Under the pieces are notes generated by a model. It was not told the DNA's origin and did no database searches. It saw only the letters and a program-made list of their open reading frames with translations. The position numbers and the translations under genes are program-made. This document shows, in pieces, positions 397 to 64,000 of a DNA stretch of 64,000 nt. How positions within the stretch are numbered: the first letter of the stretch is position 1; each line of letters begins with the position of its first letter. The stretch comes from Paraspadella gotoi. Its lineage: Eukaryota; Animalia; Chaetognatha. The stretch is from the NCBI GenBank assembly GCA_051294375.1, contig CM119264.1:26910340-26974339 (forward strand), read 5' to 3'.

Positions 397-851
397 TGTC
401 GCCTGATGTGTTGTGGGCGGAAAGTGCATCACCAGGTTGAGGCATGTCGCCTGAAAGTGTTGTTGTTGCTGTTGTGTTCGGAAGACGGGCTCACCAATGA
501 AGAGACAGTAATTATTGATAAGTGTTAATGACAGAACCGTTCAATATAAGCAGTAAGGCGTAGTGAAAGTTACATACAAAAATTCTAAATATCAATTATG
601 AACAACATACCATCAGTAAACTTTAATTTGTAAAAAAAAATTAATTTTATGTTCAATTTTTGCAGTAGGCTATATTTATATATAGTACTACTCCTATAAC
701 ACCATGTTACAGGCGGGTTAAGCGCCCCGTCCCTCTTAACTGCTAGGCGACCACCGGGCTAGAACCCCGGACCTTTGGGTTGGGAGGCGAATGATTTGCC
801 TCCAGCACCAATGGCCGCTGATGAACGGTTGGTGGATTTTAGTCTACCATA
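397..851 (-). mobile_element. Family-1 tRNA/twister repeat copy with P4 replaced by a hAT-MITE end fragment (554-693)
   Basis: Reverse complement of 694-851 matches 60720-60880, and that of 397-554 matches 60471-60632. Confidence 0.8.
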
Positions 852-1789
852 AATCATGTTTTAATAATACCCCGTGTCCGTTTGCGAGTGACATTAAAAA
901 AATCTTTACTATACTTTAAATATATAATAAATTTAATTCATAAGTTTATCATTAGTTGGAGAACTACTTCACGTCTTTTATGTATAAGTTTCATTAGCCT
1001 AATGATTAGGTGTTTAATTTTTTTACTATTCTTAGTTTAATTTTTTATCTAACTCAGTAAAATTGGTGAAAAAAGACCATTTAGACGTGTTCTTGATTGA
1101 ATTTTTTAAAAAAACTTTATATTATTAGAAATCCTTATTAATGGTAATTATTGGGAATTATTATAATGTTGAGTAACTGAATAATGAATTTTTATTTATT
1201 TGTATTTGTTTGTATTATTTAATTGTAAACTTAAGTTTTCATTATACAATTTGTCCAATTGGCGATCCCGGAGTTGAATTCGCTCTGGAGGCTTATGGGA
1301 AAACAAAGAGAAAGAAGAGGAAAAAATAAAGTTCGTTTCTTTACGGAAAAGAAAATTTAAGACAGTAATAATAATGATATTAAAAACGTTTTTAAGCTTT
1401 ACGAGCTAAGGATTTCTTTTTAATTCTTTAAAAAATTTAATTATAATATTTTTTTTATTGTTTTTGATAGATATTTACAAAATAAGTTTTTATTTGTGAT
1501 AACCACGATCATTTAATAATTCGGATATGTTTTGGTTCTTGTTTTTTGATCCTTCATCAACCAGTTTTAATAATAATAATAAATATTTAGATATTAACTT
1601 TGAGAGATAGAGAGGCAATTTTAACTTTGATATTTCTCACTCTCTCCGAATTATTAAATGACCATTGTAATCATAAATAAAAACTGTTACTTTATAAATA
1701 TTATTATTATATTTTTTATAAATTTATTAATATTTAAATATTCTTTTTTGAAATGTTAAATTGTATACTTAAACCAAAACTTAATTCTA

Positions 1790-10580: not shown

Positions 10581-10663
10581 GAATAAATAATAAATAATTT
10601 TGATATTGTTACGTACGATTTCAACAGATCTACCTTGCCTCCGGACTCGTGGTTACTGAAGGA

Positions 10664-10725
10664 CTCTCTTACCAGACAATCACAATAGCAGGATCCCGCA
10701 AGCTTTCAATCTTGACTCTCTTAGT
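10664..10725 (-). mobile_element. Family-2 repeat fragment ending just before the ribozyme core
   Basis: Reverse complement GAGAGTCAAGATTGAAAGCTTGCGGGATCCTGCTATTGTGATTGTCTGGTAAGAG matches 44751-44804. Confidence 0.7.
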
Positions 10726-17299: not shown

Positions 17300-17331
<32 letters not shown>

Positions 17332-19948: not shown

Positions 19949-20008
<60 letters not shown>

Positions 20009-21522
20009 CTCGTTTCAGCGTCATTACGCCCTTTCAGACACAACAGTGGAGTGAGATAGACGCTAATTTATTATAGAGAAATCTGAAGTGTGCGTGTGAC
20101 TGTTTTCGTATGTGTATATGAACGTGTATGTTACTGTGTTCGACCGTGCCTTTATCGACATGCATTTGTGTCGATAATAGAAAAAGGGAGACTATGCACC
20201 ATTNNNNNNNNNNNNNNNNNNNNNNNNNNNNNNNNNNNNNNNNNNNNNNNNNNNNNNNNNNNNNNNNNNNNNNNNNNNNNNNNNNNNNNNNNNNNNNNNN
20301 NNNNNNNNNNNNNNNNNNNNNNNNNNNNNNNNNNNNNNNNNNNNNNNNNNNNNNNNNNNNNNNNNNNNNNNNNNNNNNNNNNNNNNNNNNNNNNNNNNNN
20401 NNNNNNNNNNNNNNNNNNNNNNNNNNNNNNNNNNNNNNNNNNNNNNNNNNNNNNNNNNNNTTTTTTTTCTGGAGGGTCGACGAAGTTCGACCAGATTTGG
20501 TGTCGTTTCGTCAAACTCTGACGTTTCTTTATTCTCTCGGTGTCATTTCGTATATATTTTGGGTCGTTTTGTTTCGCTTCTTGCAATGTCTACGCATTGT
20601 GTAATCACGTGGCGCCGTTGTCCAAATAGACTCCCTTTCTGTTGGCCTGAATCGTTTGAAAATGACTCGGGTCGAAAGGGCTATTAGTTTTTTTTAACTT
20701 GGATCATTTTTAACTAACAATGACTTTTGGTCGATTATTTAATTGTGATGGACACGTATCGGGACAACTACATGTTAAACAATGACCGGAACCAAAACTA
20801 ATAAAAAAAAAAGAAAAAATAAGTAAACAAAAATATATAACATAACAAAATTGCGAGAAAAAAAATTAGGAATTTACGAAAAATGCAATAAAAACGATAA
20901 TATTAAGAACCCACCTCCCTCTCGTCCTTTGGCTGATTAACAANNNNNNNNNNNNNNNNNNNNNNNNNNNNNNNNNNNNNNNNNNNNNNNNNNNNNNNNN
21001 NNNNNNNNNNNNNNNNNNNNNNNNNNNNNNNNNNNNNNNNNNNNNNNNNNNNNNNNNNNNNNNNNNNNNNNNNNNNNNNNNNNNNNNNNNNNNNNNNNNN
21101 NNNNNNNNNNNNNNNNNNNNNNNNNNNNNNNNNNNNNNNNNNNNNNNNNNNNNNNNNNNNNNNNNNNNNNNNNNNNNNNNNNNNNNNNNNNNTCGGCTTA
21201 CGCGATCGTCTCTCTCTCCCTCTTTGACGAGGCCCTCTATCGGGCGGAATCGTCACCCTGAAATAATCTCATCGACAGAAACGTGGATTTTTTTTTGTCT
21301 TTCGCGCGGCGGNNNNNNNNNNNNNNNNNNNNNNNNNNNNNNNNNNNNNNNNNNNNNNNNNNNNNNNNNNNNNNNNNNNNNNNNNNNNNNNNNNNNNNNN
21401 NNNNNNNNNNNNNNNNNNNNNNNNNNNNNNNNNNNNNNNNNNNNNNNNNNNNNNNNNNNNNNNNNNNNNNNNNNNNNNNNNNNNNNNNNNNNNNNNNNNN
21501 NNNNNNNNNNNNNNNNNNNNNN
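16661..21522. other. Cluster of seven assembly gaps (N-runs); other gaps at 29377, 49719 and 57754
   Basis: N-runs mostly abut microsatellites or homopolymers. Confidence 0.98.
17515..17880. repeat. Polypyrimidine minisatellite, about 48-bp unit
   Basis: CCATCTCTCAATTCCATCCTCTCATTTGTTCTC recurs about every 48 nt. Confidence 0.9.
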
Positions 21523-32650: not shown

Positions 32651-33355
32651 GAAGCCACTTTGACCCTCTCATTGAATTCAGTTTTTTCCACCCAAAAAAT
32701 GTTTCGCCTCCACGAATCCAGTTTCGCTCCGACGCCAATGGGCGAAGAGAGAGTTCGTCGTCGTCATCCTCATCGTCGTCGTCGTTGTCGTCATCATCAT
32801 CCTATTCTTCATCGTTGTCATCCCAGTCGACACAGAAACAAAGCTGTATTCGCCGATTATTAATGTTATTGTCATTTTTACAATTGTTAGACCCAAAAAC
32901 CTTTGTCATCATTGCCATCGACAGAGTCTTAGCCGTCATCTTCTAAAAAGATCGATTTAATCTCATTTCAGCCAATGAGCAGATTGGGTTCGACTCTACG
33001 CCGTCGCTGACGTCGTCGTCGTTGTCGTCGTCATCTTCGTCGTCATTGGATTTGTTTCTGCGGATTTTTCGCTCCTTCCCCTCCGGCTCATGTTCCAGTG
33101 TCTTCGTAAAAATCCGTGTCAGACTCTCGTTCGAGTTTACTCTCCGTTTTCGAGGTCGTCAACTCTGTTTTTCTTGTTGTTTTCTCCTTTGTTTTGGAAA
33201 ACGTTGGAATACGTCGTCCTTAAAGGGGATTTGGCGTCGTTTTCGTCGTTGTCGTTTTCCTCGTCGTCTTCGTCGTCGTCGTCGTCATATTCGCTGTCGT
33301 TTTCTTTCTCTACACTAACCTTTTACGTTCTTGCTTTCTTTTTCCTCTCTCCCCG

Positions 33356-33731
33356 TTTTTAGTTACGCCGCGAGGACTCGCGGAGAAACTCTATAAGTCA
33401 CTTTTCGGTCGGTCTGTCGGTCCGTCGATATGTCTGCCCATTGGTCAGTCCCACTTACGTTTAAAATACGTATAATTCGCTTTTAGTTGGTTGTTCATTT
33501 GTTTAGACAGAAAAAACCTCAAATCTAAGGGACTGCTATTGCCACCTTCAGGAATTCCTAAAACTAAAGATGAAAGACAGAATTTTGATGCAGTGCATGT
33601 TATAAATACATAAGCAAAAAAGTTATTTAGTCATGTTATGTATATGTCATATCATGTCATGTCACCGAAGGTAAAATACACGTGAAAATAAAGTCACTGC
33701 GGCGCAACACATTGGAATTACCGTTATTGTT
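33356..33731 (+). mobile_element. Helentron-associated non-autonomous element (HINE/DINE-1-like)
   Basis: T-run ends, subterminal IR GTTRCGCCGC/GCGGCGCAAC, hairpin CCGCGAG..CTCGCGG, GTCY microsatellite. Confidence 0.75.
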
Positions 33732-33929
33732 TTTTCATACATATATCCACTCCATCTTTTAATTATTTCCCATCACTCTCTTCTTGTCTCCCTCTTTCCT
33801 TTTTCTATTTTCCTCGGTCTTTCTTTCTTTCTTATTACTTTCCTCCGCATTCTTCTCTGTCACTATTTGTTTTAATTTTTCGTCCCATTATTTTATCAAT
33901 CAAATTCAAAAAATCTTTTCCACTCTTTA

Positions 33930-38985: not shown

Positions 38986-41900
38986 TTAGCCGCCACACGA
39001 TTCTGTTTTCGCTGCGAGGATTTCGTTGACGGAAGCGGTGGTTCCGACGAAGACGGCGAAGACGCTGAAGACGAGAAGTAGGGCGTCCAACCAGAGACGC
39101 CAGTTCAAACGCCCTGCTTCTTCGGGTCTTTGGGGAAGGGCGGGAGGAAGGGGAAATACGTATTTAAAAAAACGAGGCAGGGTAAAGTCATCGCCGAATT
39201 GTGAATTATTGTGACACCTTGGAATCCTACGTAACAAATCGATGACGATGGGGATTGTCACGGACAAAGGGCAACCGATGAGAATTCCAACCAGCGAGAT
39301 GAAGGGGCCTGATTTTGAGAATGCAAAAGACGTTTCAGTTTTACGAATTGGAAAAATATTTACCCAATCATTAGTAATTTATGAAATAACAAGGAACGGT
39401 TATTCCAAGGTGTTGCGCGACGCGGCGCGGCGCCAGTAGTCGCTTAGATTTGATTTTTAACAAATGGGCAATAATCTATAAGCAAGTTATAAGCGCTTTT
39501 AACGTAAGTGGGACAGACCGATGGACAGACATACCGACGGACCGACCGACCGACCGACGGACGGACATCACTGCCATTACGATTAACTTACACCTTCAAT
39601 CACAACCAAAACGATTCACGTTGAGTTCGATCGTCTTCGGGACAACTCACCGATGTGCGGAAAAGCGGCGGCGATGACAGCGGAGCAGACGACGACGACG
39701 ACTCTGAGGCCGAAGTCGCAGAGATCGAGGTGGCGATCGTCGACGATCCACTTCTTGACGCCGCCGAAGACAATCCCGTGAGCGACGAAGAACTGGATGG
39801 CGTAGGAGGAGACCACCGCGCAGGAGAAGATGCCTTTGAGGCTGAAGGAGGAAGTAGGCAAGAAAGTTATAAAGAATTAGCAAACTCTTTTGTGGGAATT
39901 TTAAATAAATTTCTGGGGTTTATAAATACGTTTTTTGATACAAAATGAACTTTTACGATATGTACAGTGACTTATAAACGATTTCCGCATAGCTTGGCCG
40001 GGTTGAGGGTCCAAGCAAGGCAAAAAAAACCGTGTCTAAATGATTTTGTGAATTAGGTTTAAAAACAAACCCAAACAATCATTCATAAACTTACGACGAA
40101 ACATTTTATACAATTAGAGGTTTATGGATCTAATTACTACCAATTATGTTACTATGGCAATGGGGGGGGTCATGTGTGATGCCTGGGGTGTGAGGCATCT
40201 CCCAACAGCTGGCGCTCAGGGCTTTGGACGAGCTGAGATTCACCAAGCTATGCGGAAGGCGAATTTAGGATTCGCCATATTACATATATTGCTCTGCAGC
40301 AAAGAGAGGCCTAAATATAGTCGAACATTTCCTACAAATAAATAATAGGGCTGCGCATCGTTCGAATCGAAGTTCCGATCAAGTTCCTTTATATTTCACT
40401 TCTTTTCAAAACTGCATAGTCAAGGCCAATATAAATTATATCAATATGGGTGAGTTTCGAAAGCTTGGCGTCTTGGGAAGCCAACGGAGGTAGAGCGCGA
40501 TCGAAATTCCCATTTTATCATGCCCAAAAATGGTATTTAAATGAACTGGTCAGACCGTTTTTTCCCTTTTCCAAAAAACCTGCTTGATTTTTGTAAAATA
40601 GAACAAATCATACATATCAGTACGGTTTCGGATAGCTTATTGTCTTCTCTACTAGGTAAAAAAAAGAAAAGTTTAATTCTTGCAATCTTGAATGCCTGAT
40701 AAAGCAATCAAATGAACTGGTTTTTTAGGTGAAAACTGCATAGTCAAGCCTTCAATTTTTTTTTTGTTCTAAGACCATCGAAAGAAACTGTATTGTTTTT
40801 TACTATCTGTTTCAGGTAGAGCGCGGGGGTAAATTTAGAGAGTTTATATTAAATTTAGAGCAAATAGAAAGGATATCAAGTTTTTGCACCTAAAAGCTTT
40901 TTTAAGCGCGTTCCGGTCTGTATTGAGGACATCAATTAAAATTAAGCATTGATCATGCGCGATCCGGGCCAGATAAATACCATATTTCAACATGGCTTTA
41001 CCGTATTTTTTACGTTTTAGAACGCAGTCTGTATGAAATTTTTGAATTTCACGCCTGTGATATTGGCGTTCTCGGCGTCGTTTGTCCCTTGTTAGTCTCT
41101 TTATCTTATCTCTTGAAGAGACATTAATTTTGTTATGTGATAGTGACAAACCGTTCAATAAAATCTTAAAAGCAATGGATCGAGCTTACTTTTAATGATA
41201 ACCAAATATTGATGCGATGATAATCAAATATTGATGCGAAGATAACCGAAGGATTGATGCGATGATAACAAATGATGTATGCGATGATAGTCATTCATTG
41301 ATGCGATGATAATCATTCATTGATGCGATGATAGTCCTTCATTGATCGGATGATAATCATTCATTGATGCGATGATAGTCATTCATTGACGTGACGTGAC
41401 TTTGAAAAAAGTATGCATATTTTAAAAAAGTATGCATACTTCAAAAAGTATGCATACTTTTTTCAAAGTATGCATACTTTTTTGAAGTATGCATACTTTT
41501 TTAAATATGCATTCTTTTTGAAGTATGCATACTTTTTTCAAATATGCATACTTTTTTTCAAAGTATGATACTTTTTTCAAAGTTGCATACTTTTTTCAAA
41601 GTTTGCATACTTTTTCAAAGTTGCATACTTTTTTGAAGTATGCATACTTTTTTAAAATATGCATACTTTTTCAAAATATGCATACTTTTTTCAAAGTATG
41701 CATACTTTTTTGAAGTATGCATACTTTTTTTAAAAATAGCATACTTTTTTAAAATATGCATACTTTTTTTAAAGTATGCATACTTTTTTAAAATATGCAT
41801 ACTTTTTTCAAAGTATGCATACTTTTTTGAAGTATGCATACTTTTTTAAAATATGCATACTTTTTTCAAATTATGCATACTTTTTTCAAAGTTTGCATAC

Positions 41901-44334
41901 TTTTTTCAAATATGCATACTTTTTTGAAGTATGCATACTTTTTTTAAAATATGCATACTTTTTTCAAAGTATGCATACTTTTTTCAAAGTATGCATACTT
42001 TTTTCAAATATGCATATTTTTTCAACTTGCATATCTTTTTCAACTTGCATATCTTTTAACTTGCATATCTTTTTCAACTTGCATATCTTTTTCAACTTGC
42101 ATATCTTTTTCACTTGCATATCTTTTTTCAACTTGCATACTTTTTAACTGATTACCGCTAAATTATCTTAGTCAAATCCGACATTGTTTGCTCAAACTTG
42201 TTCTATAATAAGCCGGATTCAGATATGACAATTTTAGATATTAAACTATCGTCTATTATTTTTAATTTTTTATTCATTGATCAATTTATTACACATTAAT
42301 CATATATCTTTTAATTATAGTTTTATTGCTATCATTTAAATCTGTTATCATAAATTAAAATGATTCAAAAATGAAAAATTAATCGTTAAGTGACAATAGT
42401 GAATTCTTAATTAGTTAGTTTAATAGTAGTTTTGCTGGTGAGATCAGTCAATATACTTTCAATTTATTACTTCTTTGGCTCTCTTGTCTTTTCCTTTTTT
42501 ATTCTGTTATAATTATGTTATTTTTGTGATGAATTTTGTAAGGATTCCTTTTTTTCCGGGCTTCGCTTATTCTATTTTCTCTTATGAGGCCGGTTCGCGC
42601 ATAATCGCTATATCGGTTTAAAGCTTAGTACTATAGTACAGTAGTTCAAATCCTTATTGGATCAAACCGAGTTCGATTTTAAGCGAAAGTTGATCGATTT
42701 GAAGCGCGATTTTCGCGACTGTTTTTTATTGCCATAACTTTTGAACGGATTATCCGATTTTATAAAATTTTGCATATAGATAGTATTTTAAATTCCCTAT
42801 CGATCGGTACCAAATTTATTTAAAATACCACCAATAGTTAGAAACGATGCACATCCCCATATATAATTCGAGGATTACAATGATTTATTGAGTTATAAAA
42901 TACCTATCATTAATCAGCCCTTTCGGCAAATTGAGAGTGATTGCTCGCAGCGAGTCTCGCCCGAATCTCAAGTAGCCAAAGAAAGCGAAGGAAAGTAGAG
43001 ATGTGGCGCTCAACGTGATTCCGACGTTGGTGACGCCGAAAGGGGACGTCATCTCTTCGGGCAGCGCCATTTTGTTTTCCAAAGGCAAGACGACGACGGA
43101 ACCTTGGCAAAAAAAATTATAAGAGCTTGTTTGAATATGTTTAGAATAGATTTTGGTATTTTTTGACTTTTCTGTGCGTTTGGTTTTTTTAAGTTTTCTA
43201 AACAGAAACTAATTTAAAACTTAGTCTTGAGATCATAATCAAACATCTATCAGTGTTTAAACGTTCTTAACAGTAATTTATACAAGGCTTTTAAAATTAA
43301 GCATTTTCCCCACACATTCAAATATCAAACCACAATCATTTACCCTCGAAAGAAAAAATGAGCGTCGCAAAGAAGACTGGGTACTTAATCGGATCTGGAG
43401 CAACCATGTCCAATTCGCTCATCGGCAGAAAGTCTTGCAGCAAGAAAGCGAAGATGATGGTTGATGCAAGGAGTTGAACGGCGATGCCGACGCAAGATAC
43501 GATCGCTAACAGTTCCACGTTGCGGACAAAGATGACCAAGATGATCAGAGGGAAGGTCAGGGAAATGTAAACCTGCACAGGCCAGGTGCAGTCGATAATT
43601 TCTCGAATGTTTTCGCCTGAAAAAGCACGTCTCAAGAATTATCTACTTTCAAATTAAAACTAAATAATAAAAAAAAAAACATCTTTCCTTACCAATAAAT
43701 ATAAAGTAAAAAATGAGAATCGACCATTGTTGCAGCAAAATCAGAGAGTTTAACATTTTGTGGGCAAATTTAGCGAATGGTGCACAGAAATTAGGACCGT
43801 AAGCAAATGCAAACTGGAACGTGTCCCCATAGTCTAGAGAGCCTCGTTCGGTTAATGCACAAAAAAACCTAAAAAAGAAAATATTTATACTTAATTGCAA
43901 ATCGCGTTAATATTTATGGATTATTCAAAATTTCACCTCGAGGCAGACACCAAGCAGTGCAAGCAGTAAATCAGCAGCAGGGAGTAGAGCGGAATCATCG
44001 CCCCGGCGACGAGCAGTCCGACGCGGGCGACGGCTGCGGGCAACGCCAACGTCGCGGGGCCGACGAAACATTTGACGAAATGCGCCAGGGTAGCGTGAGT
44101 GGAGATTCTGTCGGGCGGAGACGAAGTCGACGCCGATTCTCTCAAAGGATGGGCGTGGCGCGACTCTTCCGCCGAAATAGCATCGATCACGTCCAAGCCT
44201 AACAAACGTCTCGTCTCTGCTGCGACGTTAGAACTTTTTTCGCCGTTGAGGCCGACGTCGGGGACGCTGCCGCCGCAGCTGCCGCCACCGCTTCCGCCGC
44301 TGTCGCCGCTGCCGCCGCTGCTAGCGTTTTTCAT
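38986..44334 (-). CDS. Proton-coupled amino acid transporter, SLC36/PAT-like (Aa_trans family), 519 aa predicted; exons 44334-43937, 43868-43693, 43616-43344, 43102-42904, 39841-39651, 39308-38986
   Basis: Motifs TLAHFVKCFVGPATLALPAA, SLDYGDT, FFATLIFSFEGSVVVLPLENKM, FGYLRFG...ITLNLP, YAIQFFV and FISLVG match SLC36. All five introns are GT-AG and phase-consistent; exons sum to 1560 nt ending in TAA. Confidence 0.92.
39388..39570 (-). mobile_element. Truncated HINE/DINE-like element in SLC36 intron 5
   Basis: Same terminus AACAAGGAACGGTTATTCCAAGGTGTTGCG and GACCGAC repeats as the 49135 copy. Confidence 0.7.
41195..41390. repeat. Tandem repeat of about 21-22 bp (TGATGCGATGATAATCATTCAT)
   Basis: About nine visible units. 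Confidence 0.9.
41400..42147. repeat. Minisatellite of about 19-20 bp with palindromic core AAAGTATGCATACTTT
   Basis: More than 30 visible units; drifts to CAACTTGCATATCTTTT at the 3' end. Confidence 0.92.
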
Positions 44335-44464
44335 TTTTCAACACCCACCTTCTTTTTAAAATTTTAGACAATGTTTTTTTAGTTGAATAAAACATAAAAC
44401 ATAAAATAGAATATAAACCATAACATAAAGCTTGCGGAAAGCTTGCAGGGACCCGCTATGTCAT

Positions 44465-44527
44465 TATCTTGTAAGAGTGATGGAGGCCATAAACCACCAA
44501 AGCCTGTCCAAAGTCAGGGGCGAGATA
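44465..44527 (+). ncRNA. Twister ribozyme, type-P5 permutation, no P3 (repeat family 2, copy A)
   Basis: P5 TATCTTGT/GCGAGATA; P2' GAGT; GA; T1' TGG; AGGCCA; TAA at 44490-92; P2 ACC; T2 AC; CAAAG; P4 CCTG/CAGG closing T-CCA-AA-GT. Confidence 0.78.
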
Positions 44528-44791
44528 GCTTATTTATTAAATGAATGGATAATTTTTATATTGGTTGTACCAATTTCATAAATTTTAGCTCCTTGTATTT
44601 TGATGCTGGACGGAGTACAATATAAATATATATACGATCTAATACTTAAGGGAGTGGTCTTTTCATACAATTGAAACATTCTTTAAAATATTATACCACT
44701 TCATTGATAGGGAAGCCACTTACTCTTGGAGTGAATAAACGAGACTGTGAGAGAGTCTTGATTGAAAGCTTGCAGGGACCTGCTATGTCAT

Positions 44792-44854
44792 TATCTTGTA
44801 AGAGTGATGGAGGCCTTAAACCACCAAAGCCTGTCCAAAGTCAGGGGCAATATA
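44792..44854 (+). ncRNA. Twister ribozyme, type-P5 permutation, no P3 (repeat family 2, copy B)
   Basis: Same layout as copy A, with palindromic P1 AGGCCT (44811-16) and TAA at 44817-19. The P5 3' strand GCAATATA has one mismatch. Confidence 0.78.
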
Positions 44855-45116
44855 GCTTATTTATTAAATGAATGGATAATTGTTATATTGGTTGTACCAA
44901 TTTAATAAAAAGTAAAATGTTTAAAAAAGCATTTCGGAAGAAAAATACAGTCGCCAAAAGTAGATTACATAATTTCAAATAATTTAAAACATTTGACGGA
45001 AAGAAACTCGTATTAAAAACTTTTTCGAAGGTCTATGTCGTAAGCTGTCTCTAGTTGATTTCAAATATCTACGTGGAACATTCGACCGAGATTTACTTTT
45101 TGTTTAATGAGATCTG

Positions 45117-45188
<72 letters not shown>

Positions 45189-46198
45189 TGGGAACAAAAG
45201 TTGAACAACAAGCGAATTCAAATCTTGTTAACGACGGCGTTCTTCTTGTGACAAACAAGCGCTGTTCGGGGTCGAGCGCTTTATCGAAGATAGGCGCTCC
45301 AACGAAGAGAACCCTCTTCGCTTTTCTCATTCGCTAAAAATGAGCAAAAGAAATCCAGGAGACGCGAGAATTCCACGATTTGCATAAAAGAAGAATGAAA
45401 AGAGGAAAACCGTCGGGATTTCGGAACCGACGTCGTCTGAAAATCTAGATGAACGCGAGAGACGAGAGACGCGACCCTGCAGTGATTGAGGAGATAATGG
45501 AGCAGAAGGGAGACTAGAGACACGACAGACGCGAGCCGAGATAAAAGAGAGACGAGAGAGCAGACGCGTCGTCGGCCCCTGAGGTGACCGGCCCCGACGT
45601 GGACCGACATCGACCCGACGAGAATGCGTAACGCGGACGCGATATTTAGTCGAGAATGGCCCGACAATAGGAAAACCGGCCCGACAATGGGACATACCGG
45701 CTCTGCCCTCTGGAGGTTAAACGTTTGAAGAAAGAAAGAAAAAAGAAATACAGAAATAACGGGAAGGTCGCTAGAGGAGAATGGGGGGGCGGAAGAATGA
45801 GCGAGATAGAAGAAGAAAAGAAGAAATAGACTATTTAATAGTGGAAAAAGGAAAAGCGAAAGGCGAGGAAATAAAATGAAAATAGGTGAAAAATAGGGAG
45901 AAAAGAAAGTAATGTTCGCGCGAGAAATTAAGAAAAGGAAAAAAGAAAAAAATGTTGGTAAAAGATCAGGAGATATTAACGCAATGTATCAGAACTCCGT
46001 GACCGGAAAGATATAGGGTTTAACCTTGAAAAGGTTAAATTATTAGCGTCTTATTAAACACTAGACTCCACGAAACGGAAAAATTTCGGCGTAGTAGAAT
46101 AAAAGTTTTTTGAAATTAATTAGAAAAGCTTCGTTATCTTTTAATCAGTTGCTCTATTACTAAAAAGCAGAGCCAAACATTTTCCAAACGTTTTTTTA

Positions 46199-46577
46199 AA
46201 CAAGAACGGTAATTCAAATGTGTTGCTCCGTAGTGACTGCGATATCACGTGTATTTCTTGTGACATGACTACATGACTACAATAACTTTCTTAGCTCATG
46301 TATTTCTGACACGCACTGCATCGGAATTTTGTTTTTTATTCTTTATAGTTTTAGGATTTCCTGAAGGCGGCGATAGCAGTCCCTAAGATTTAAAGTTTTT
46401 TCCTGTCTTGACAAATGTGTAACCAACTATATGCAAGTTATGAGCATTTTGAATGTAATTAGGACAGACCAATGGACAGACATACCGACCGTCGGACTGA
46501 CCGATGGACCGACCGACGGACCAACCAAAAAGTGACTTATAGATCTGCTCCACAAGTACTCAGGACACAACTAAAAA
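46199..46577 (-). mobile_element. HINE/DINE-like element
   Basis: Reverse complement is colinear with 33356-33731. Confidence 0.75.
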
Positions 46578-46611
46578 TGAAAATTTCTAGGAATGATTTT
46601 CTTTTTGTTCA

Positions 46612-46894
46612 TTTTTGTTGCACCACGAGTACTCGCAGAGTAACTCTATAAGTCACTTTTCGGTCAGTCGGTCCTTTGGTATGTCTGTCCGTCAGTCTGT
46701 TCCACTTTAAAAAGGAAAAACCTTCAAATCAAAATTCCGATGCAGTGCTTGTCATAAATACACGGCTCAGAGAGTTATGGTAGTCAATTAGTCATGTCAT
46801 GTCACATCGTCATGTCATATAATGTCATGTCACAAGAGATACATGTGATAAGGCAGTCGCTGCGGCGCAACACATTTGAATTACCGTTCTTGTT
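46612..46894 (+). mobile_element. HINE/DINE-like element, inverted relative to the adjacent copy
   Basis: CGAGTACTCG hairpin, CTCTATAAGTCAC, GTCY repeats, GCGGCGCAACACATTTGAATTACCGTTCTTGTT end. Confidence 0.75.
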
Positions 46895-48284
46895 TTTATA
46901 ATATCCATTACTTTTTCGCGGCCATGTCCAATGGCATTGTCCATTGTCCAATGTTCATTTTTTAAATCTCTGTAGCTTGGTCCTCCGTGTTCATTTCGCT
47001 GTCATTGTAAACCGCATGTTCTGTCACGGACGTTTTTTCACCATGGAGACCCGAGGCAAGAGGGGAGGGACGGGGGGGGGCGGCAGTCGGAAAGAGTTGG
47101 AAAGGTTTATCGAAGCGAGACGCCACAGCCTCATCCTCTTTGCATCCATAACTCAAGTAGGTGACGTCGTTGGGGCCTCGCTTACGAGGCTCACCCCTCA
47201 CCGCTCACCACTCACTGCCCAGCCATAAAAAATAACACCCTTCACCGCTCACCGATCGTCCGTTAGAACTCATCCATTAACCCTCACCCTCCCGGTTGAT
47301 CGTCATTGTCGCAGCTCTTTATTCTTAACTCACCCTTGAACCTACCTTAACCCTAAACCCTAAACAAAACGCGCGATACATTCACTAAGACTTGCGCGGG
47401 TTGGATGGCGTTGTAATTACTTGGAACCTAAGTTTGCTAGCGTTTTGGGTGGCATTTCGGCGTTGAGAATGGAATTGAAACAATTAACTCACCCAGTAAT
47501 TCATATTATATATATATTATCGACCAAATTCTCATTTGCATTTTATAATATTTTGCTCACGATATGCTTTTTCTTTGAACATCTTTAGATTTTAACTATT
47601 ATCACGTTTAAAGTTTTGTTGTTCTCTTTTTACAAAGATTTTAATAAAAACTGCCATTTCTTTTTGTGGGGTGTTAAAATTCAATTATTGATATTAATTT
47701 AATGCAGTGAATTCCAGTTCGATGGTTAATTGGTTATGTACTTCGCTCGAAAGGGAAGCTCGCAATACCGCAACTAAAAATAAAATATGCAATTGTATTT
47801 GAAGAAGAAAATTTTTGAGTACTTCACTCCTGGAGTACATCGACGATAAAATGAAAAAACGCCGGTGCGTTTGAAACCCGATTCCTCGAAAGCGCGTCTG
47901 CGGCGTCTCTCCACGTCATCTAAAACGCGCCGCCAGTTCGACGGCGCCGGTGCCAAAGAGCGCCCGCGGTTTTGATGCGCTCGTCAAACGGGTCTATTGG
48001 TGTTGATGGGGTCGCGCGCAGCTTCATGGTGCCCAGGATGTGCCAGGCCGTTGTTAGATAATCGAGACAAAGAGGTTTGAGAGATAGAGATAGAATAGAG
48101 AGAGAAAGAAAGAGAGAGAGAGAGTGTGTGAGTGAGAGAGACAGAGTGTAGAGAGAATAATGAGATAATGATATAACTACTGAGCGACGTCATCGCCAGT
48201 AAAAATTCTACGCAGTACATAGAAGTAAAAAAAAAATTCAACGATATACAATTGATCGCATTTACAACGCGTTCACTCTCTCTC

Positions 48285-49134: not shown

Positions 49135-49552
49135 AACAAGGAACGGTTATTCCAAGGTGTTGCGCCGCATTACTCTTCTTTTTACTTATCATATCATTTA
49201 TTCCTTTTAGTTTATAAGATTTCTTTGTTAGACATGATGTATTAACCTTTCTTTTTTGTTGTTAGTTTTAAGTTTTAAAGTTTTAATGATTTTTTACAAC
49301 AAATAATAATAAAAACAAATTTATTATAAAACTTTGTTTTTTCTACTAAAATTTTTTTAAAAACAAAAGGCGGCGCCAGTAGTCACTTAGATTTGATTTT
49401 TAACAAATGAGCAACAAACTATAGACAAGTTATAAGTATATAAACGTAATTGGGACAGAGCGATGGTCAGATATACCGACAGACCGAGCGACCGACCGAC
49501 CGAAATATGACTTATAGAGTTGCTCCGCGAGTACTCGCGGCGCAACTAAAAA
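49135..49552 (-). mobile_element. HINE/DINE-like element
   Basis: Both termini present; perfect palindrome CCGCGAGTACTCGCGG (49525-40). Confidence 0.75.
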
Positions 49553-50305
49553 TGGAATGAGCCATAGAGACAAGGAGAGGAGAAAAAAGCACAGAGTGGC
49601 CATAATTTCCAAGTAAAAACCTCCTACGAGCCACCGAAACATTTTTTTGAGCGGAGGGGAAGGGATGGGGAGAAAAGGTAGGAGGGGACGGGGAAAGAAG
49701 GGAAGGGGACGGGGAGAANNNNNNNNNNNNNNNNNNNNNNNNNNNNNNNNNNNNNNNNNNNNNNNNNNNNNNNNNNNNNNNNNNNNNNNNNNNNNNNNNN
49801 NNNNNNNNNNNNNNNNNNNNNNNNNNNNNNNNNNNNNNNNNNNNNNNNNNNNNNNNNNNNNNNNNNNNNNNNNNNNNNNNNNNNNNNNNNNNNNNNNNNN
49901 NNNNNNNNNNNACGGGAAAGGGGAAAGGAACAAGAGGTCAGAGAACTAAAGGGGCAAGGAACAAGAGTCGAAAAAAGATAGAAAAAGGATAGAAACCAAA
50001 AAAAAGTGGAGGGAAGGGATTTTAAAGAAATAGATCGGGACCCGCGGATTCGCGAAGACGAAGCTTCTCCGAATATCAGTTAAACCCGGTTTTTTCTTTG
50101 GCACCGAAGTTCGTCGGCCGACGGGACGAGAGGTGGGAATCAGGGGGGCGTAAGGGGGGGGGGGAACGGTGTAACGACCGCGTTGTTTTTTTTCGAGAGG
50201 TGCTCGCTCTGTCTCTGTCTCTGTTCTATATCCGCTCTCTGTCTCTCTCTGGTGTGTGTATGTGTTTCTTTTTCTTTCTACTTATATGTCTTTCTCTCTC
50301 TTCGT

Positions 50306-57859: not shown

Positions 57860-58950
57860 AGAGAATCAGAGGTCAGATCTGAGGACAAGGTGAAGTGAGG
57901 GAAGGGAAGGAGAGTCAGTAAAATGTGAAAATTTTGGTGAAAAGCGAGAAGAGAGAGAAAGAAGAGAGAGAGAGAGAAGAGAAAAAAAAAATAAATACAT
58001 TTGGTACTGTAGCAGACCAGTGAAAAAGTAAATAAACTAAAAGTAAATAACAAAAGATTAATAATAATTGATTGTGAAAATTGAATAGATTTGAAAATAA
58101 TGAAAAACATGAAGAATTGAAATATAAAATGAAGAATAAAGTATGAGGGGATAGATAAGATAATGGTAAGGGAAAATAAGGTAGAAAGCAGCTCAAAAAT
58201 GAGCTAGGCCCCCTCCTGGCGCAGGCAAATGAAGGGCGTTAACAATGAGCTCGGGGTCATTGGCTTGGTTAATGGGTTGAGAGGATATTGTGGTGGAGTG
58301 GGAGAGGTTGGGATCCTGGCAAGGATCCTGCTGGAAATATGCGCAAACGCGCCCCCTTTCTTTTCTCCTTTTTCTTTCTCCCTTTTTCTTTTTTTATTCT
58401 TTTCACTTGAATATCTCTCTGACGCTGATAAGCCTGCCGAGAGCCATCCTCTCACCTGACGGTGAGCCGCGCGGTTGTCTGTTCTGGCCTGTTTTCAGAT
58501 ACAGGAGATACTGACTCCCCTCAACTCCTGCGACACTGGCTGAGCCCTCCAGCTCGTGGGCTGAAGGGTCAGGAGTTCGAAATCTACAGCTGTCGCTTTG
58601 GCGGCGCTCCAGTACGAGGAGAGTCGTACAAGTTGCTGTAGGGTTGGGAGAGGCATTGGAACCGTCATTGCCTGCTAGGAGGTCTCCGCCTGACCCATTG
58701 AGTGGGGAAGGGGAACTCCAGCGCGTGGCGGTGAGGTGGCGTTGGGGTGGCTCACACCACAGTTTTGATTAAAGAAAATCAAAGCTTATGAAGGGAGTTC
58801 GAAAATGCGATCCCTCCATCACGGTTCAAAAAGGGCTCGAGCGCTTTGAATGTAAATCGCCTCTTCAGAAGCCAGTCTTTGGTCATGGGAACAAGCAAAA
58901 GACAGTCAGTCTTCCTCTCTAAACAGATGGCCCATATTCGTCGCATGTCA
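57860..58950 (-). mobile_element. Penelope-like element 3' fragment (GIY-YIG endonuclease C-terminus plus 3' UTR)
   Basis: Reverse complement of about 58810-58870 encodes EAIYI...EPFLNRDGG (with one indel), the typical PLE endonuclease tail. 58190-58290 is related to 61755-61860. Confidence 0.75.
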
Positions 58951-59654
58951 AAAGCATATATAATAATATTAATTTAGCGAATTAACGTCATGGTTCGGAA
59001 CATTTTAAGGCAAAAAAATATTTTAACACAATTAAAATTTGGAATTCGGTCGCTACCGCTAACTTGAAGCAATCGCTTTAGCCTGTCAAAAGTTTTATTT
59101 TATTTTTTTAAATATCTCTAAAGATACAATCCCTAAGATTAGCCAGTGTTTTGAAAGAAACAGTAATAATGTTATAAAGTTAATGACAGAAATACGTTCA
59201 ATATAAGTCAAAGCAGTAGAGTAAAAAAATAAAATTGAGAAAATTAGAAATTTAGGCATATAAACATAAAAATAAAAAACCAATTAAAATACTTTCATAA
59301 ATTCATATTTTTAAATTTTAATACACTCGTGGCACCAGTGTAGCTATATTTAATATAAATAACTAATTATAATAATAACTAAAATTTTGAAAAATGCAAA
59401 TTTTTAAAATTTTAAGATCCAGGATTTGGATCCCTTGCTTAAAGTTGATATAAGAAAGTATAATTCTTTTTTTAAAATAGAATTCTTATCATAAGTTGTT
59501 AAAAATGTAAAAAATATATTTAAAAAAGGCGCCATTTTTAATTTCGGCAGTGCTTAAAAATATAGTTTTTTATAAATTTTAATCTCATAATGACATAATT
59601 TTTCGAAAAAGAATTATATTTTCATTTATCACTTTGGAACAGGATGAACACCGT

Positions 59655-59810
59655 TTACAAGGCGGTTAAGCGCACCCATTTCCTCTTCAACTGGCGAGGC
59701 GACCCCAAGGCTAAAACGCCGCGGACCTTTGAATTGGGAAACGAATGACTTACCTCCTGGCGTAACAATGGCCGCCTGATGAAGCAGTTGAATGATTTTA
59801 GTCCACCAAT
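59655..59810 (-). mobile_element. Degenerate, truncated family-1 repeat copy
   Basis: Colinear similarity to 705-850 (gcggttaagcg...ggacctttg..ttggga...caatggccgc.tgatgaa...ttttagtc). Confidence 0.65.
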
Positions 59811-60397
59811 TTTATTTTTATCATTAATGTCAAAAGCAATACAGGCTCTTTGTTTAAACATGTTAAAATTCAGAACGGCAGAATTAATCTCGGCCTATAA
59901 TTATAAACATATAATTTTCATCAAAAAACTAAAGTAAGCAACGATATTGTTTGGATTTAAGAGGCTTTAAGCACAAAAACTGTTAATCAATGGAAAATGG
60001 GCGAAAAGAGTTTTAAATTAACAAAATAATATGTGAAAAATATTGGCATATTAGGGCACTTAAAATCGTTATTAGCAATACAGTAAAGTAACGACGTTGA
60101 TAATTGAATTTATTATACAAAAGAAGATAATTCGCTGGCATACTAGGGTAGATAACTTGCATATGTACTGTGTAGTAGGGTTGAAGTGAAAGTTTTGAAT
60201 CAAAATTTAAAGCAGTTATATTTTGAAACTATCTTAATTAGGAATACTAAATCTGTAGTTATTTTTTTTTTTTATAAAATATAGTAACCCAGTCAACTTT
60301 TTAGTATAAATTATGTTACCCTTATGCCATTGGTGCCAGAGGCAAGTCAATCACCTCCCAACCCAAAGGCCGAGGGTTCTAGCCCGGTGGCCCGCCT

Positions 60398-60476
60398 AGC
60401 AGTTAAGAGGGACGGGGAGGCTTAACACCGCCTGTAACACAGTGTACAGCCTGATCCGAAAAGCTCAGGGACTGCT
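60398..60476 (+). ncRNA. Twister ribozyme, type-P5 permutation (repeat family 1, copy A)
   Basis: P5 AGCAGTT/GACTGCT; P2' GAGG; GA; T1' CGG; short P1; TAA at 60423-25 (predicted cleavage U/A); T2 GC; P3 hairpin CTGTAACAC...GTGTACAG; P4 CCTGA/TCAGG closing T-CCG-AA(AA)-GC. P2 pairing is imperfect in this copy. Confidence 0.78.
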
Positions 60477-60827
60477 TATATTGAACGGTTCCTGTCACTA
60501 ACCATAACAATAATCCTGTCTCTTCATTTGGTGAGCCCGGACTTACGAACACAACAGCACAACAACACTATTCAAGGCGACATGCCTCAACCTGGCGATG
60601 CACTTTCCGGCCAAAACACATCAGGCAACATGCCTCAACTAAGGTAACAACTTTCCACCAACAACAACAATTCACTGAAAGACGCAACAGACTTCTCCCT
60701 CCGGGAGGAGGGGAATGTATGGTGACTTAAAATCCACCAACCGTTCATCAGCCGGCCATTGGTGGCTGGAGCAAGTCATTCGGCCTCCCAACCCAAAAGG
60801 TCCGGGTTCTAGCCCAGGTGGCCGCTT

Positions 60828-60903
60828 GCAGTTAAGAGGGACGGGCGCTTAACCCGCCTGTAACAAGGTGTTTACAGCCTTATCCGAAGCTCAGGGGACT
60901 GCT
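60828..60903 (+). ncRNA. Twister ribozyme, type-P5 permutation (repeat family 1, copy B)
   Basis: GCAGTT-AA-GAGG-GA-CGG-GCGCT-TAA(60850-52)-CCC-GC-CTGTAAC..GTTTACAG-CCTTA-TCCGAAGC-TCAGG-GGACTGC; one mismatch in P4. Confidence 0.78.
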
Positions 60904-61253
60904 TATATTATATTATTATATTATAATAATGCCAAAATTTCAAAATAAGTTTTTTTGAAATTTTGACTCCTCATAAAAAGTTGATAACGTACATATCTTT
61001 TTTAAAAATTAAGTATTAAGTAGGTTAAAATTGTTAAAAACTAATATTTTATTTGAAAATAATAACATTAAGTATCATCAAACATATTTTTTTTTAATAT
61101 TTTTGACAAACTTAATGAAAGAATGTTAAAAAAGAATTAATACTTTCTTTATCAAATTTTTGAAACAAATTCAAAATCTGGTTTTTGTAATTTTAAATTT
61201 TATTAAACAAAGTTGAAATTTTATTTTTGTAAACGAATTTTATTGTTACAATG

Positions 61254-61298
61254 AGCAGACATGTTATCGGCTCAACAGTACGAGCCTTCACAGCGCAT
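61254..61298 (-). ncRNA. Degenerate inverted copy of the 62699 hammerhead
   Basis: Reverse complement GCG-CTGTGA-AGGCTC-GTACTGTT-GAGCC-GATAA-CATG-TC-TGC. Flanks 61200-61320 match 62677-62795 in inverted orientation. Confidence 0.7.
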
Positions 61299-62558
61299 GA
61301 GTTGCTGAAGTTGATACATGTTTTTTTAAAGTTAAAGAAAGAGAGAGAGAGAGAGAGAGAGGTTAAGGTTCCAAAACAAAGAATGAGGTAATTAACATTT
61401 GAGAAGCACATACATAGATAAAGATAATGGAAACTTGTCTAATAACAATTGAAAAATAAATTAATTTTTTTTTGCCGTGTGGCAACCATGACACCGTCCG
61501 AATCTCTGGCAGGCATCTCAGGCCTCTTTCTGTGAGTCTGGCGTCGTCCCAAACCGACGGCTGCAGGAAGATGAAGAGGATTCAACCATCCCTTGTCACT
61601 AAAATGGCAAGAGTGGATACCCGCCCGCCTACCGTCAGGTAGTAAGAGGGCCGCCGGCAGGCGTCACAGGCCAGAGGGATAATAAAGGGTGGGCCTTGGG
61701 TTTGTTTCGCTCAGGGAGCATACCTGACCCAAGGCCAACACGAAGATCAAAGTCCCATTTATCCTCTCAACCCATAACGCGCCAATGACCCGGCCTGTCA
61801 GGCAAACCTCTCCTTCATAAAGACCGGGGGTCTCAGCTAATTTTTGAGCCTCTTTCTAATTCATTATATTTCACTACAATCTTTTACTTATTCTATCCCT
61901 CTAAAATCTCATATTTGCAACTTCTCAATTTCAATTTTTCAACATATTCAATTTCAAAAAAATTATTTATTTCAATTTGTTATTAGAAGTTTCCATTATC
62001 TTATATCTATGTTGTACATTTGCTCAAATGTAAATTATTATTTTCTCATCTCTCTCATCTTCTCTCATCTCTCTCTCTATCTCACCAATTTTCAATATCT
62101 TTCAAAACTTATCAATACTAGGGCCACTTCTAAAAATCTGTCCCTCACCACTGATACACTGGTCCTTACCAAATTCTTGTTGGAAAGCTTTATACCCTCT
62201 CTCTAGCTTTCTCTCTCTCTCTCATCATCTCTCATTTCCTTTAACCTAATAAACTTTTTTGTTTACATTACAAAAAATGTAAAAGATTTTCTCTTTCCCT
62301 GTCTCTCTCTCATCTCTCTCTGCTCATCCATTTCAAATTTCAACCAACTTATTTCTTTACCCCCTGGATCTTACCTCACACTGTCCTCATATCCTGACCA
62401 CATGTCGTTTGCTCAATTCTTTGTTGAAAAACTCCCTCTTTTTCTGTCTCATCTCTCTCTCTCTCTCTCATCTCCTCTCTCTCTCATCTACCTCTCTCTC
62501 TCATCTCTCTCTCTCTCTTATCTCTAAACCTATTTGATAAAGAGTAAGAATTATTGAT

Positions 62559-62615: not shown

Positions 62616-62698
62616 ATAAAACAATTCCGTTGATAAAAACAAATAAATTGTTTTTTCTCCTAAACTAAAAACTATGGTATCAACTTCAGCAACTCATA

Positions 62699-62745
62699 AT
62701 GCGCTGATGAAGGCTCGTACTGTGAGCCGAAACAATGTCCTGCTC
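62699..62745 (+). ncRNA. Hammerhead ribozyme motif (PLE pseudo-LTR)
   Basis: GCG-CTGATGA-AGGCTC-GTACTGT-GAGCC-GAAA-CAATG-TC-CTGC. Confidence 0.82.
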
Positions 62746-63260
62746 TTGTAACAATAAAAAATTCGATGTGCAAAAATAAAATCAAACTTTGTTAATCTCT
62801 CAAACAACTAAAAAGAAAGGATAATTACCATGAATTTTTATTTAGAAATTTTAGCCTATTTATTCTTATTATTATATATAAATATACATAGCTTACTGGT
62901 CACTACTAATATATAAAATTAAAAATTAAATATCCCAAAGTATTTTTATTAGTTATCTTCATAATCTACTATATGCTAAATTTTAATTTTACAAAATTTT
63001 CTTATTTCCACATCACTCTCCGGCGTAGATAGAAGCGGAGGAGGTAGGAGCAGAAGGGCAATGATCGGGGCAAAGGCCACTTCCCGAGTTGTTTTTCTTC
63101 GAATTTGTCCAATCGATCCAATCGAGATTCCACAAGTTTGTTCCTGACATATATAAGTCGAAAACACGTCCAAAATGATAGCGGAGAATTTAGTCGATCC
63201 GAAGATCTGAAACTCTCTCTCTCTCACCAACTTATATATGTGAAAATTGTCATTAATCAA

Positions 63261-63304: not shown

Positions 63305-63469
63305 CACTGAATGTTTAATAAAAATCGTAAAACTAATAAAAACTTTCGTTTTTTGAACTGCGCTAGTTTCAAATTGAATGGTTTTTGGTCTTTTCTTGCC
63401 ATGAGGAAAAAAAGGAAAAATCGGTTAATGATTTAATTTATTTACACCTTTGATGAAAAAAAAAGGCCA

Positions 63470-64000
63470 CACCGATCAGTACATACCCTTCGACTCTCGT
63501 GCTCCCTTGTCCCACAAGCTCGTCACGGTCAGAGCCCTTACCAGGAGAGCTCAGCTGATTCCGTCGACCCCCGAGCTTCGGGCCGCCGAGCTTGAGCAGT
63601 GAGCTTGAGCACGTCAAAAGAGCCTTGGCGATCAATGGCTACCCTCTGTGGGCCTTCGAGAAGGCTAGGTATCGGCCGCGCCTGGCTGATGGCAGTGGCC
63701 AACCAGGGGCTTCCCAAGTAACCGCTGACGCAGTTTCTTCCTTCGCCCCCCAGGATGAAGAAAGAGGGCTTGCTGCTGAAGAGCCGACCGCGCCCACCAC
63801 AGCGCAAACGCAAGATAAGCAGAAGCGCCCTCCTTTTCACTTAATTTATTATTAGCTAATTGTTAAAATCACCACTAATCAGTTTTAAAAACCTATATTT
63901 TAGTTGTACATTGCACAAATGTATCATTTATATTTTTTTGCTCTCTCTCCCTCTCTCTCTCTCTGACCATATTCACTTCCTTTCAAAACTCACTGAATCT
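63470..64000 (+). mobile_element. Penelope-like element fragment (RT C-terminal region plus 3' UTR)
   Basis: ORF 63592-63855 contains ELEHVKRALAINGYPLWAF, the EL..L...L..NGYP motif that follows the PLE RT core. Confidence 0.8.

What the first reader, a model, noticed from the sequence alone, without database searches (positions are those of the whole stretch)
60326..60910. Tandem tRNA-headed repeat with a type-P5 twister ribozyme in each unit (candidate twister retrozyme, 427-nt monomer)
Seen: two head-to-tail copies, each reading P5(AGCAGTT)-AA-GAGG-GA-CGG-short P1-TAA-CCC/CACC-GC-P3 hairpin-P4(CCTGA)-TCCGAAGC-(TCAGG)-P5'(GACTGCT). The predicted U/A cleavage sites (60423/4 and 60850/1) are 427 nt apart. 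Established: this is the twister layout (UAA, GC pseudoknot, loop-4 U-NNN-AA-GC, GA plus T1 partner), and tandem ribozymes releasing unit-length RNA is the logic of metazoan hammerhead retrozymes. Inference: a non-coding retroelement that uses twister rather than hammerhead to make monomeric, possibly circular, RNA.
Basis: partly seen in the sequence, partly recalled or inferred. Interest (0 to 1): 0.92.

Follow-up and report, generated by a model that had tools for sequence, protein, structure and literature searches.

The report
Twister-ribozyme retrozyme with palindromic dimer linker
A very abundant repeat in a probably animal genome carries in each 427-base unit a tRNA look-alike and a sequence with the full layout of a twister self-cutting RNA, so tandem copies would likely cut out unit-length, possibly circular RNAs that are likely copied back into the genome, a role described for hammerhead ribozymes in animal retrozymes.

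Summary
Observation confirmed; activity untested. 60326-60910 is 1.4 head-to-tail units of a 427-bp repeat. Each unit has a tRNA-Gly(CCC)-like head and a type-P5-order twister layout (cut sites 60423/4, 60850/1). A structural descriptor finds just these two sites, and none in 100 shuffled windows. Rfam and a phage-trained model do not call them: P1 is shrunk to a 6-nt linker, P2 is bulged, P3 is added. Public reads show roughly 10^4 copies, whose majority letters restore the canonical core. New here: a second, tRNA-less 327-bp tandem family (44437-44909) has the same ribozyme layout. Its 9 differences over 35 core positions all keep the pairings, both pseudoknots included. In both families the P1 linker is a self-complementary hexamer, like the palindromic helix III of dimer-acting hammerheads, so cleavage may need two units. 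Against a pure retrozyme reading: most copies look short and dispersed, their ends are not at the cut site, and the one RNA run shows no enrichment. Ten literature searches found no twister retrozyme. Earlier scan notes hold only ribozyme-free tRNA tandems in other genomes.

The parts
60326..60910 (+). Family A partial tandem insertion, about 1.4 units of a 427-bp repeat
60326..60397 (+). tRNA-Gly-like head, copy 1 (degenerate; not called by ARAGORN on this strand)
   Evidence: alignment to copy 2
60400..60474 (+). Twister layout 1 (type-P5 order): GA 60411, UAA 60423, loop 4 60455-60464 with two extra A
60424..60850 (+). Predicted 427-nt monomer between the two cut sites; not unusually stable as a circle (z -1.1)
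60482..60490 (+). 9-nt arm complementary to 60739-60747; would close a stem around head plus ribozyme
60476..60752 (+). Non-coding spacer with a 48-nt internal duplication (60575-60666) and two hairpins (about 60693-60711 and 60721-60738). Common ends of dispersed copies map to about 60526 (3') and 60718 (5')
60753..60825 (+). tRNA-Gly(CCC)-like head, copy 2; A and B boxes both deviate from the recalled consensus
   Evidence: ARAGORN -ps95
60829..60901 (+). Twister layout 2: GA 60840, T1 partner 60842-60844, UAA 60850, loop 4 60883-60890
60844..60849 (+). Self-complementary hexamer in place of P1 (overlaps T1 by one base in this copy; separate in copy 3 and in most reads)
60929..60934 (+). Possible 6-bp target-site duplication (also at 60324-60329) after an AT-rich tail; weak
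397..854 (-). Third family A copy: head, 5' half of the ribozyme (U at 720) and part of the spacer; P4/loop 4 replaced by a 143-bp piece of another repeat (555-697)
59632..59808 (-). Decayed family A copy (71% identity); ribozyme core eroded
41114..41163 (-). Short family A fragment
44437..44909 (+). Family B: partial tandem of a 327-bp AT-rich unit (repeated part 96% identical), no tRNA head, twister layout in each unit
44463..44529 (+). Family B twister layout 1, U of UAA at 44490
44790..44856 (+). Family B twister layout 2, U of UAA at 44817; perfectly palindromic hexamer linker

Best explanation
This is a high-copy, non-coding repeat whose units each carry a tRNA-Gly-like head and a twister ribozyme layout; it likely works as a twister-based retrozyme, in which a transcript running through two units is predicted to cut itself at both U/A sites, releasing a 427-nt RNA that would be circularised and likely reverse-transcribed by a helper retrotransposon. 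Shown: the layout, the tandem junction in many copies, the rough copy number, and the second family with pairing-preserving changes. Inferred: (1) transcription, from the tRNA-like head by Pol III or by read-through; (2) cleavage; (3) a two-unit mode, in which the self-complementary linkers of neighbouring units pair to form a 6-bp P1, so that a type-P1-like core closes around the whole monomer and solo copies cut poorly (about even odds within this model); (4) ligation by a host RtcB-type ligase, as proposed for hammerhead retrozymes; (5) copying from an intact-junction template by a Penelope-like reverse transcriptase, giving permuted and partial-tandem insertions.
For: The descriptor hits only the two sites: 0 in 100 shuffled windows, 1 of 20,000 unit shuffles. 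Majority letters in four runs give the canonical loop 4, P4, P3 and a 6-nt linker. Family B: 2 strict-descriptor hits against 2 in 300 shuffled windows. It shares 26 of 35 core positions with family A, and all 9 differences keep pairing: double changes at P2 bp1, T1 and T2, a swapped palindrome centre, and one G.U to A-U. Random placement keeps the twister pairs and invariants in 145-240 of 2,000,000 trials. Linkers form self-duplexes of -8.3 (A) and -9.1 (B) kcal/mol; RNAfold gives no hairpin for the B hexamers or the 10-nt A stretch holding its hexamer. The 15 phage Twister-P5 controls have 15-24-nt linkers, 14 of them hairpins of 6 bp or more. P1 and P2 imperfections are tolerated in natural twisters (PMC11662667 section 32), and T1/T2 accept Watson-Crick swaps (PMC5113685). 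Contigs bridge the spacer-to-head junction (table 8). Element ends lie away from the cut site, so the copied template had an intact ribozyme. Precedent: the axolotl hammerhead with 1 bp plus a palindromic tetraloop cleaves 6% as a monomer and much better as a dimer (PMC7229834 section 15). Penelope-type minimal hammerhead cores occur in the same window.
Against: No Rfam twister hit, although 15 of 20 phage control loci pass the Twister-P5 gathering score. A model trained on 16 phage twisters scores the sites only 8.8 and 6.8 bits (E 2.7 and 7.6). A model of family B does not significantly find family A (8.6 bits, E about 10), so A-B kinship rests on the hand-registered ungapped core. Family B was found with a twister model, which biases it towards intact pairs. 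The palindrome would survive three random substitutions 6-11% of the time, and one of the two B copies has a mismatch at its end. P1 is dispensable in twister, so monomers may cut anyway. Head depth exceeds spacer depth 3-9-fold, so most copies look like short dispersed SINE-like pieces. A and B boxes are imperfect. The monomer is not more structured than shuffles (z -0.9 linear, -1.1 circular). No link to a helper element was shown.
Confidence: 0.6

Rival explanations
1. A tRNA-derived SINE-like element of about 240 bp that carries a real twister but spreads mainly from uncut linear transcripts; tandems arise by template switching or recombination, and circles play no part.
For: Fixed ends near 60718 and 60526 with unrelated AT-rich flanks in many contigs (loose ends at 851/852 and 498, agreement 0.42-0.48; mapped). 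Head-to-spacer depth 3-9. AT tail and possible 6-bp duplication.
Against: The common 5' end lies about 35 nt upstream of the tRNA head. Spacer-to-head junction depth is still 0.2-0.5 of the downstream depth. Family B has the same ribozyme layout and a partial-tandem form without any tRNA head, which points to the ribozyme, not the head, as the shared working part.
Confidence: 0.25
2. The motif descends from a twister (for example the type found at the 5' end of RTE retrotransposons) but is now an inactive relic carried passively.
For: Covariance models fail. P2 is bulged and P1 nearly absent. P3 resembles the Schistosoma twisters of PMC8501958 Table 1 (compared by eye). Individual copies decay freely.
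Against: Catalytic positions and both pseudoknots are intact in the family majority, and differ between the two families only by pairing-preserving changes.
Confidence: 0.12
3. Chance resemblance to a twister in an ordinary repeat.
For: No significant model score. A loosened descriptor gives 22 hits in 150 shuffled windows.
Against: Shuffle rates of the tighter descriptors and two tandem families with the same geometry and compensatory changes.
Confidence: 0.03

Closest known systems
Metazoan non-LTR retrozymes (Cervera and de la Pena 2020, PMC7229834: text part 2, section 15, passages; Li, Clavereau and Pollet, bioRxiv 10.64898/2026.07.22.740005: part 1 of 5, passages)
   Same: Short non-coding tandem units of a few hundred bases, one self-cleaving motif per unit, high copy number, and a weak helix with a palindromic loop next to the core.
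   Different: Those are defined by type I hammerheads and are described as lacking promoters (PMC7761336 passage). Here the ribozyme is twister-like and family A has a tRNA-like head. RNA products were not shown here.
Schistosoma SINE-like hammerhead repeats (as described in PMC6765202 passages; the original 1998 paper and the name Sm-alpha are recalled, not read)
   Same: Pol III-type promoter followed directly by a ribozyme; tandem copies release a monomer with the promoter at its 3' end.
   Different: Hammerhead there, twister layout here. Pol III transcription was not tested here.
Type-P5 twister ribozyme, Rfam RF02684
   Same: Same order of elements and the same conserved UAA, GA, loop-4 U-NNN-AA-GC, T1 and T2 (consensus).
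   Different: The Rfam model has an 8-bp P1 hairpin, a 4-bp P2 and no P3. Here the linker is 6 nt and self-complementary, P2 has a bulged A, and family A has a 20-nt P3; no hit.
Twister variants at the 5' end of Perere-3 (RTE) in Schistosoma mansoni (PMC8501958: text parts 1 and 3 of 9)
   Same: Twister with weak or absent P1 inside a retroelement; similar P3 by eye.
   Different: Type-P1 order at the 5' end of an autonomous LINE, with the insertion boundary at the cut site. Here the order is permuted, the ribozyme is internal, the element is non-coding, and its ends lie away from the cut site.
Penelope-like element minimal hammerheads (PMC4209133, passages)
   Same: Palindromic minimal helix proposed to act as a dimer in tandem arrangements.
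   Different: Different ribozyme class; sits in the terminal repeats of coding elements.

Membership tests
Twister ribozyme class | Conserved L1 UAA and GA, loop 4 U-NNN-AA-GC | tested here: met
   copy 1 has two extra A in loop 4, but 92-99% of read depth has two A
Twister ribozyme class | Pseudoknots T1 and T2 can pair | tested here: met
   Watson-Crick in 4 of 4 complete copies; one pair of each differs compensatorily between families
Twister ribozyme class | Stems P2 and P4 | tested here: met
   P4 4-5 bp (one mismatch in copy 2); P2 3 bp with a bulged A in 3 of 4 complete copies, irregular in copy 1
Twister ribozyme class | Stem P1 | tested here: not met
   6-nt linker, at most 1 bp in cis; 6 bp only if two units pair. 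P1 is reported dispensable (PMC11662667, PMC5408937)
Twister ribozyme class | Site-specific self-cleavage at U/A | not testable with these tools
   needs an in vitro assay
Rfam Twister-P5 (RF02684) | Score at or above 37.6 bits | tested here: not met
   no hit; control 15 of 20 phage loci pass
Metazoan non-LTR retrozyme | Type I hammerhead in each unit | tested here: not met
   hammerhead core scan finds none in either family, either strand; twister layout instead
Metazoan non-LTR retrozyme | Non-coding tandem units of 150-450 bp with two consecutive ribozymes | tested here: met
   427 and 327 bp periods; no ORF of 120 aa or more over either
Metazoan non-LTR retrozyme | Abundant linear and circular unit-length RNA | tested here: inconclusive
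   present in one RNA run held as contigs, at near-background RNA/DNA ratio; library type not on record
tRNA-derived SINE | tRNA-related head with A and B boxes at the 5' end | tested here: inconclusive
   tRNA-Gly fold at relaxed threshold; boxes miss the recalled consensus; common 5' end about 35 nt upstream of the head
tRNA-derived SINE | 3' end shared with a partner LINE; target-site duplications | tested here: inconclusive
   no genome held, so no partner search; one weak 6-bp candidate

The most novel reading that the evidence does not exclude
A class of animal retrozymes built on twister instead of hammerhead, present as at least two families in one genome. The twister has converged on the hammerhead trick: a palindromic stub replaces P1, so two tandem ribozymes swap strands and cut as a double twister, releasing circle-ready monomers while sparing host transcripts that carry solo copies.
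Probability: 0.35. Interest if true: 0.87.

Novelty: new variant of a known kind. Interest (0 to 1): 0.76.

Why it matters
Retrozymes are defined by hammerhead ribozymes, and published screens search only for those (the pipeline of the 2026 preprint). Tandem twisters have made circles in engineered constructs (PMC7229834 passage), and natural eukaryotic twister functions are nearly unknown beyond LINE 5' ends. A natural twister retrozyme would show that the ribozyme class is interchangeable in this lifestyle. It would also give a testable natural dimer-acting twister and reveal a P1-less permuted form that Rfam cannot see, so such elements may be widely missed.

Tried and rejected
Rfam on the window, gathering and E<=10: no twister. 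No genome is held, so there was no genome-wide BLAST or helper search. Pattern scans for relatives: metagenome 0 and 0; prokaryote genomes 0; viral 0 and 3 hits that lack the rest of the motif, read as chance. Phage-trained model R1 and family-B model R2 are not significant on family A; R2 is not significant on the phage twisters either. No RNA holder was on record in the run search. Run X5 proved to be RNA from the same organism: one contig splices the FoxN-like gene, with 1 difference in 1675 nt. Its RNA/DNA ratio at the head (0.021) is close to an intron (0.012) and to neighbouring repeats (0.002-0.017); with contigs and an unknown library this says nothing either way on small circles. MFE folding does not recover the twister fold or show unusual stability. 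An antisense hammerhead in the unit was considered (a CTGATGA on the minus strand) and rejected: no core match. The inverted copy at 59632-59808 was rejected as a Penelope-type inverted arm of this insertion: 71% identity and about 520 bp away. The descriptor hit at 31894 lacks P5 and was read as chance. The host could not be narrowed beyond a eukaryote with a spliced FoxN1/4-like gene. The suspected Penelope RT fragment at 63462-63680 got no Pfam support and its Atlas look-up did not complete.

Full report
Setting. The window is a gapped eukaryotic scaffold (1706 N) with a forkhead gene closest to FoxN1 among solved structures, spliced in an RNA run. It is probably an animal; the lineage was not established. 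No genome is held.

Observation. 60326-60482 repeats at 60755-60909 (82%), so the insertion is about 1.4 units of 427 bp. A type-P5 twister descriptor (P5, P2', GA, T1', linker, UAA, P2, GC, P4, loop 4) hits two places in 64 kb, with U at 60423 and 60850. It hits none in 100 block-wise dinucleotide shuffles of the window and 1 of 20,000 shuffles of the unit; it was written after seeing the motif. ARAGORN calls no tRNA at default and tRNA-Gly(CCC) at 60753-60825 at -ps95. A and B boxes miss the recalled consensus. The + strand has no run of four T from 60326 to 60949, compatible with but not proving Pol III read-through.

Models do not call it. Rfam finds nothing at gathering score and no twister at E<=10. 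As a control I fetched 240 phage loci by twister-like patterns. Of the 243 loci held, 40 passed the pairing filter without P5 and 4 with it. Of 20 of those 40 given to Rfam, 15 passed the Twister-P5 gathering score, 2 hit twister-P1 below it and 3 had no hit. The Rfam model has an 8-bp P1 hairpin, a 4-bp P2 and no P3, and the 15 controls have 15-24-nt linkers. The window motif has a 5-7-nt linker, a bulged P2 and a 20-nt P3, which likely explains the miss. A model from 16 phage sequences scored the sites 8.8 and 6.8 bits, ranks 3 and 7 of 11 hits at E<=10: not significant. Published assays say P1 and P2 imperfections are tolerated, while loop-4 insertions and pseudoknot mismatches hurt (PMC11662667 section 32). 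T1 and T2 accept other Watson-Crick pairs (PMC5113685, whole text).

The family. The window holds a third copy (397-854, minus strand, its P4 replaced by 143 bp of another repeat), a decayed fourth (59632-59808) and a fragment. Nine public runs of one organism hold the repeat; four were laid. The three DNA runs gave 664-2626 contigs on the 751 bp around the finding. Depth at the head over depth at the FoxN exon gives 14,000-21,000, and at the spacer 2,400-4,500; summed contig depth is only a rough guide to copy number. Majority letters repair the oddities of the assembled copies: two A in loop 4 (92-99% of depth), an extra G giving a 6-nt linker (69-99%), a 3-nt P2 strand (42-93%), and an intact P3-P4-loop 4-P5 in loose-end consensuses. 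Contigs bridge the spacer-to-head junction, so tandem or partial-tandem copies are common (table 8; junction depth 0.2-0.5 of downstream depth). Many contigs leave the element into unrelated flanks at places mapping to 60718 and 60526. None of the listed best-supported loose ends is at the cut site, though over 2000 rows were not shown. Inserted copies thus came from a template with an intact ribozyme: a religated circle or an uncut transcript. In the RNA run the RNA/DNA ratio at the head is near that of an intron and other repeats, which is inconclusive.

A second family. The best hit of the phage-trained model (11.5 bits, E 0.68) was at 44804-44845, with a twin at 44478-44518. This is a 327-bp partial tandem (44437-44909), AT-rich, with no tRNA head and with T runs. 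A strict descriptor gives these two sites against 2 hits in 300 shuffled windows; a looser one gives 22 hits in 150 shuffles. Registered without gaps on the core, A and B share 26 of 35 positions. The 9 differences are C-G to A-U at the first P2 pair, G-C to A-U in T1, G-C to A-U in T2, C-G to G-C at the linker centre and G.U to A-U at the linker end. UAA, GA, loop-4 U and AA and the bulged A in P2 are unchanged. Random placement of 9 changes keeps the twister pairs and invariants in 145-240 of 2,000,000 trials. Caveats: B was found by a twister model, and a model of B scores A only 8.6 bits.

Mechanism. Inferred: a transcript spanning two units cuts at both U/A sites. The monomer's ends can re-pair through P5, P2 and T1, which would favour ligation, by a host tRNA ligase if it follows the hammerhead retrozymes (PMC7229834 passages). 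The linker cannot form more than one pair in cis but is self-complementary in both families (duplex -8.3 and -9.1 kcal/mol). Pairing the linkers of two units gives a 6-bp P1 and two cores, one being a type-P1 twister closed around the whole monomer. This mirrors the axolotl hammerhead (one pair plus a palindromic tetraloop; weak as monomer, efficient as dimer) and Penelope hammerheads (PMC4209133 passages). The palindrome evidence is modest: 6-11% by chance, one of two B copies is imperfect, and P1-less twisters can cut (PMC5408937 passage). A Penelope-like helper is suggested by the partial-tandem form, the 2026 preprint, earlier scan notes, and hammerhead cores of that look at 62704, 63264 and 10271. 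No shared sequence with a helper was shown.

Literature. Ten searches listed no paper on a twister-based retrozyme, a twister SINE or a dimer-acting twister. Closest: twisters at RTE 5' ends (PMC8501958 parts 1 and 3; PMC7761336 passage), twister-bearing viroid-like circles in metatranscriptomes (10.1101/2022.07.19.500677, 12 of 16 passages), tandem ribozyme pairs in totiviruses (PMC13725137 passages) and Schistosoma promoter-plus-hammerhead repeats (PMC6765202 passages). Passages of PMC10085705 and PMC5680766 added nothing on this. The library lacks most subscription papers, and I did not see Roth et al. 2014 or any supplements, which could list such elements.

Verdict. The feature is real. 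It is very likely a twister variant and works like a retrozyme at about 0.6. It is not a member of RF02684 by score, nor of hammerhead-defined retrozymes. New variant of a known kind; interest 0.76.

Noticed in passing
window 44437-44909 (+); decayed pieces 4912-5228 (-) and 10629-10721 (-): Second tandem family (327 bp) with the same twister layout, compensatory changes and a palindromic linker, without a tRNA head; folded into this report.
   Followed up: yes
window 62704 (+), 63264 (+), 10271 (-); inverted pair 61206-61325 / 62667-62793; similar motif near 62568: Minimal hammerhead cores (CUGAUGA, stem II, GAAA followed by a short palindrome) of the kind described for Penelope-like terminal repeats, one pair in inverted orientation.
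   Followed up: partly
window 63462-63680 (+): Frameshifted coding fragment resembling the C-terminal part of a Penelope reverse transcriptase (resemblance recalled; no Pfam support).
   Followed up: partly
window 3216-4890, 5343-5577, 5832-6330 (+): Exons of a FoxN1/4-like forkhead gene, confirmed spliced by an RNA contig.
   Followed up: partly
window 555-697 and 2410-2982: A 143-bp piece of another high-copy repeat has replaced P4/loop 4 of the third family A copy; related sequence flanks the tandem at 60921-61180.
   Followed up: partly
window 61690-61750; 58425-58463 / 61631-61669: GC-rich 9-bp stem with a large loop, and an inverted repeat pair, in otherwise AT-rich DNA; no Rfam hit.
   Followed up: no
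window 33353-33734, 39427-39561, 46198-46897, 49367-49557: Another dispersed repeat family with several copies; no twister or hammerhead match.
   Followed up: no
window 41399-42149: 19-bp palindromic minisatellite, 33-37 copies.
   Followed up: no
window 43933-44337 (-): Exon of an amino-acid transporter gene (PF01490) starting about 100 bp from the family B insertion.
   Followed up: no
L010-L238 (viral contigs): Many phage contigs carry type-P5 twisters, some with an added P3 (15 of 20 tested pass Rfam).
   Followed up: partly
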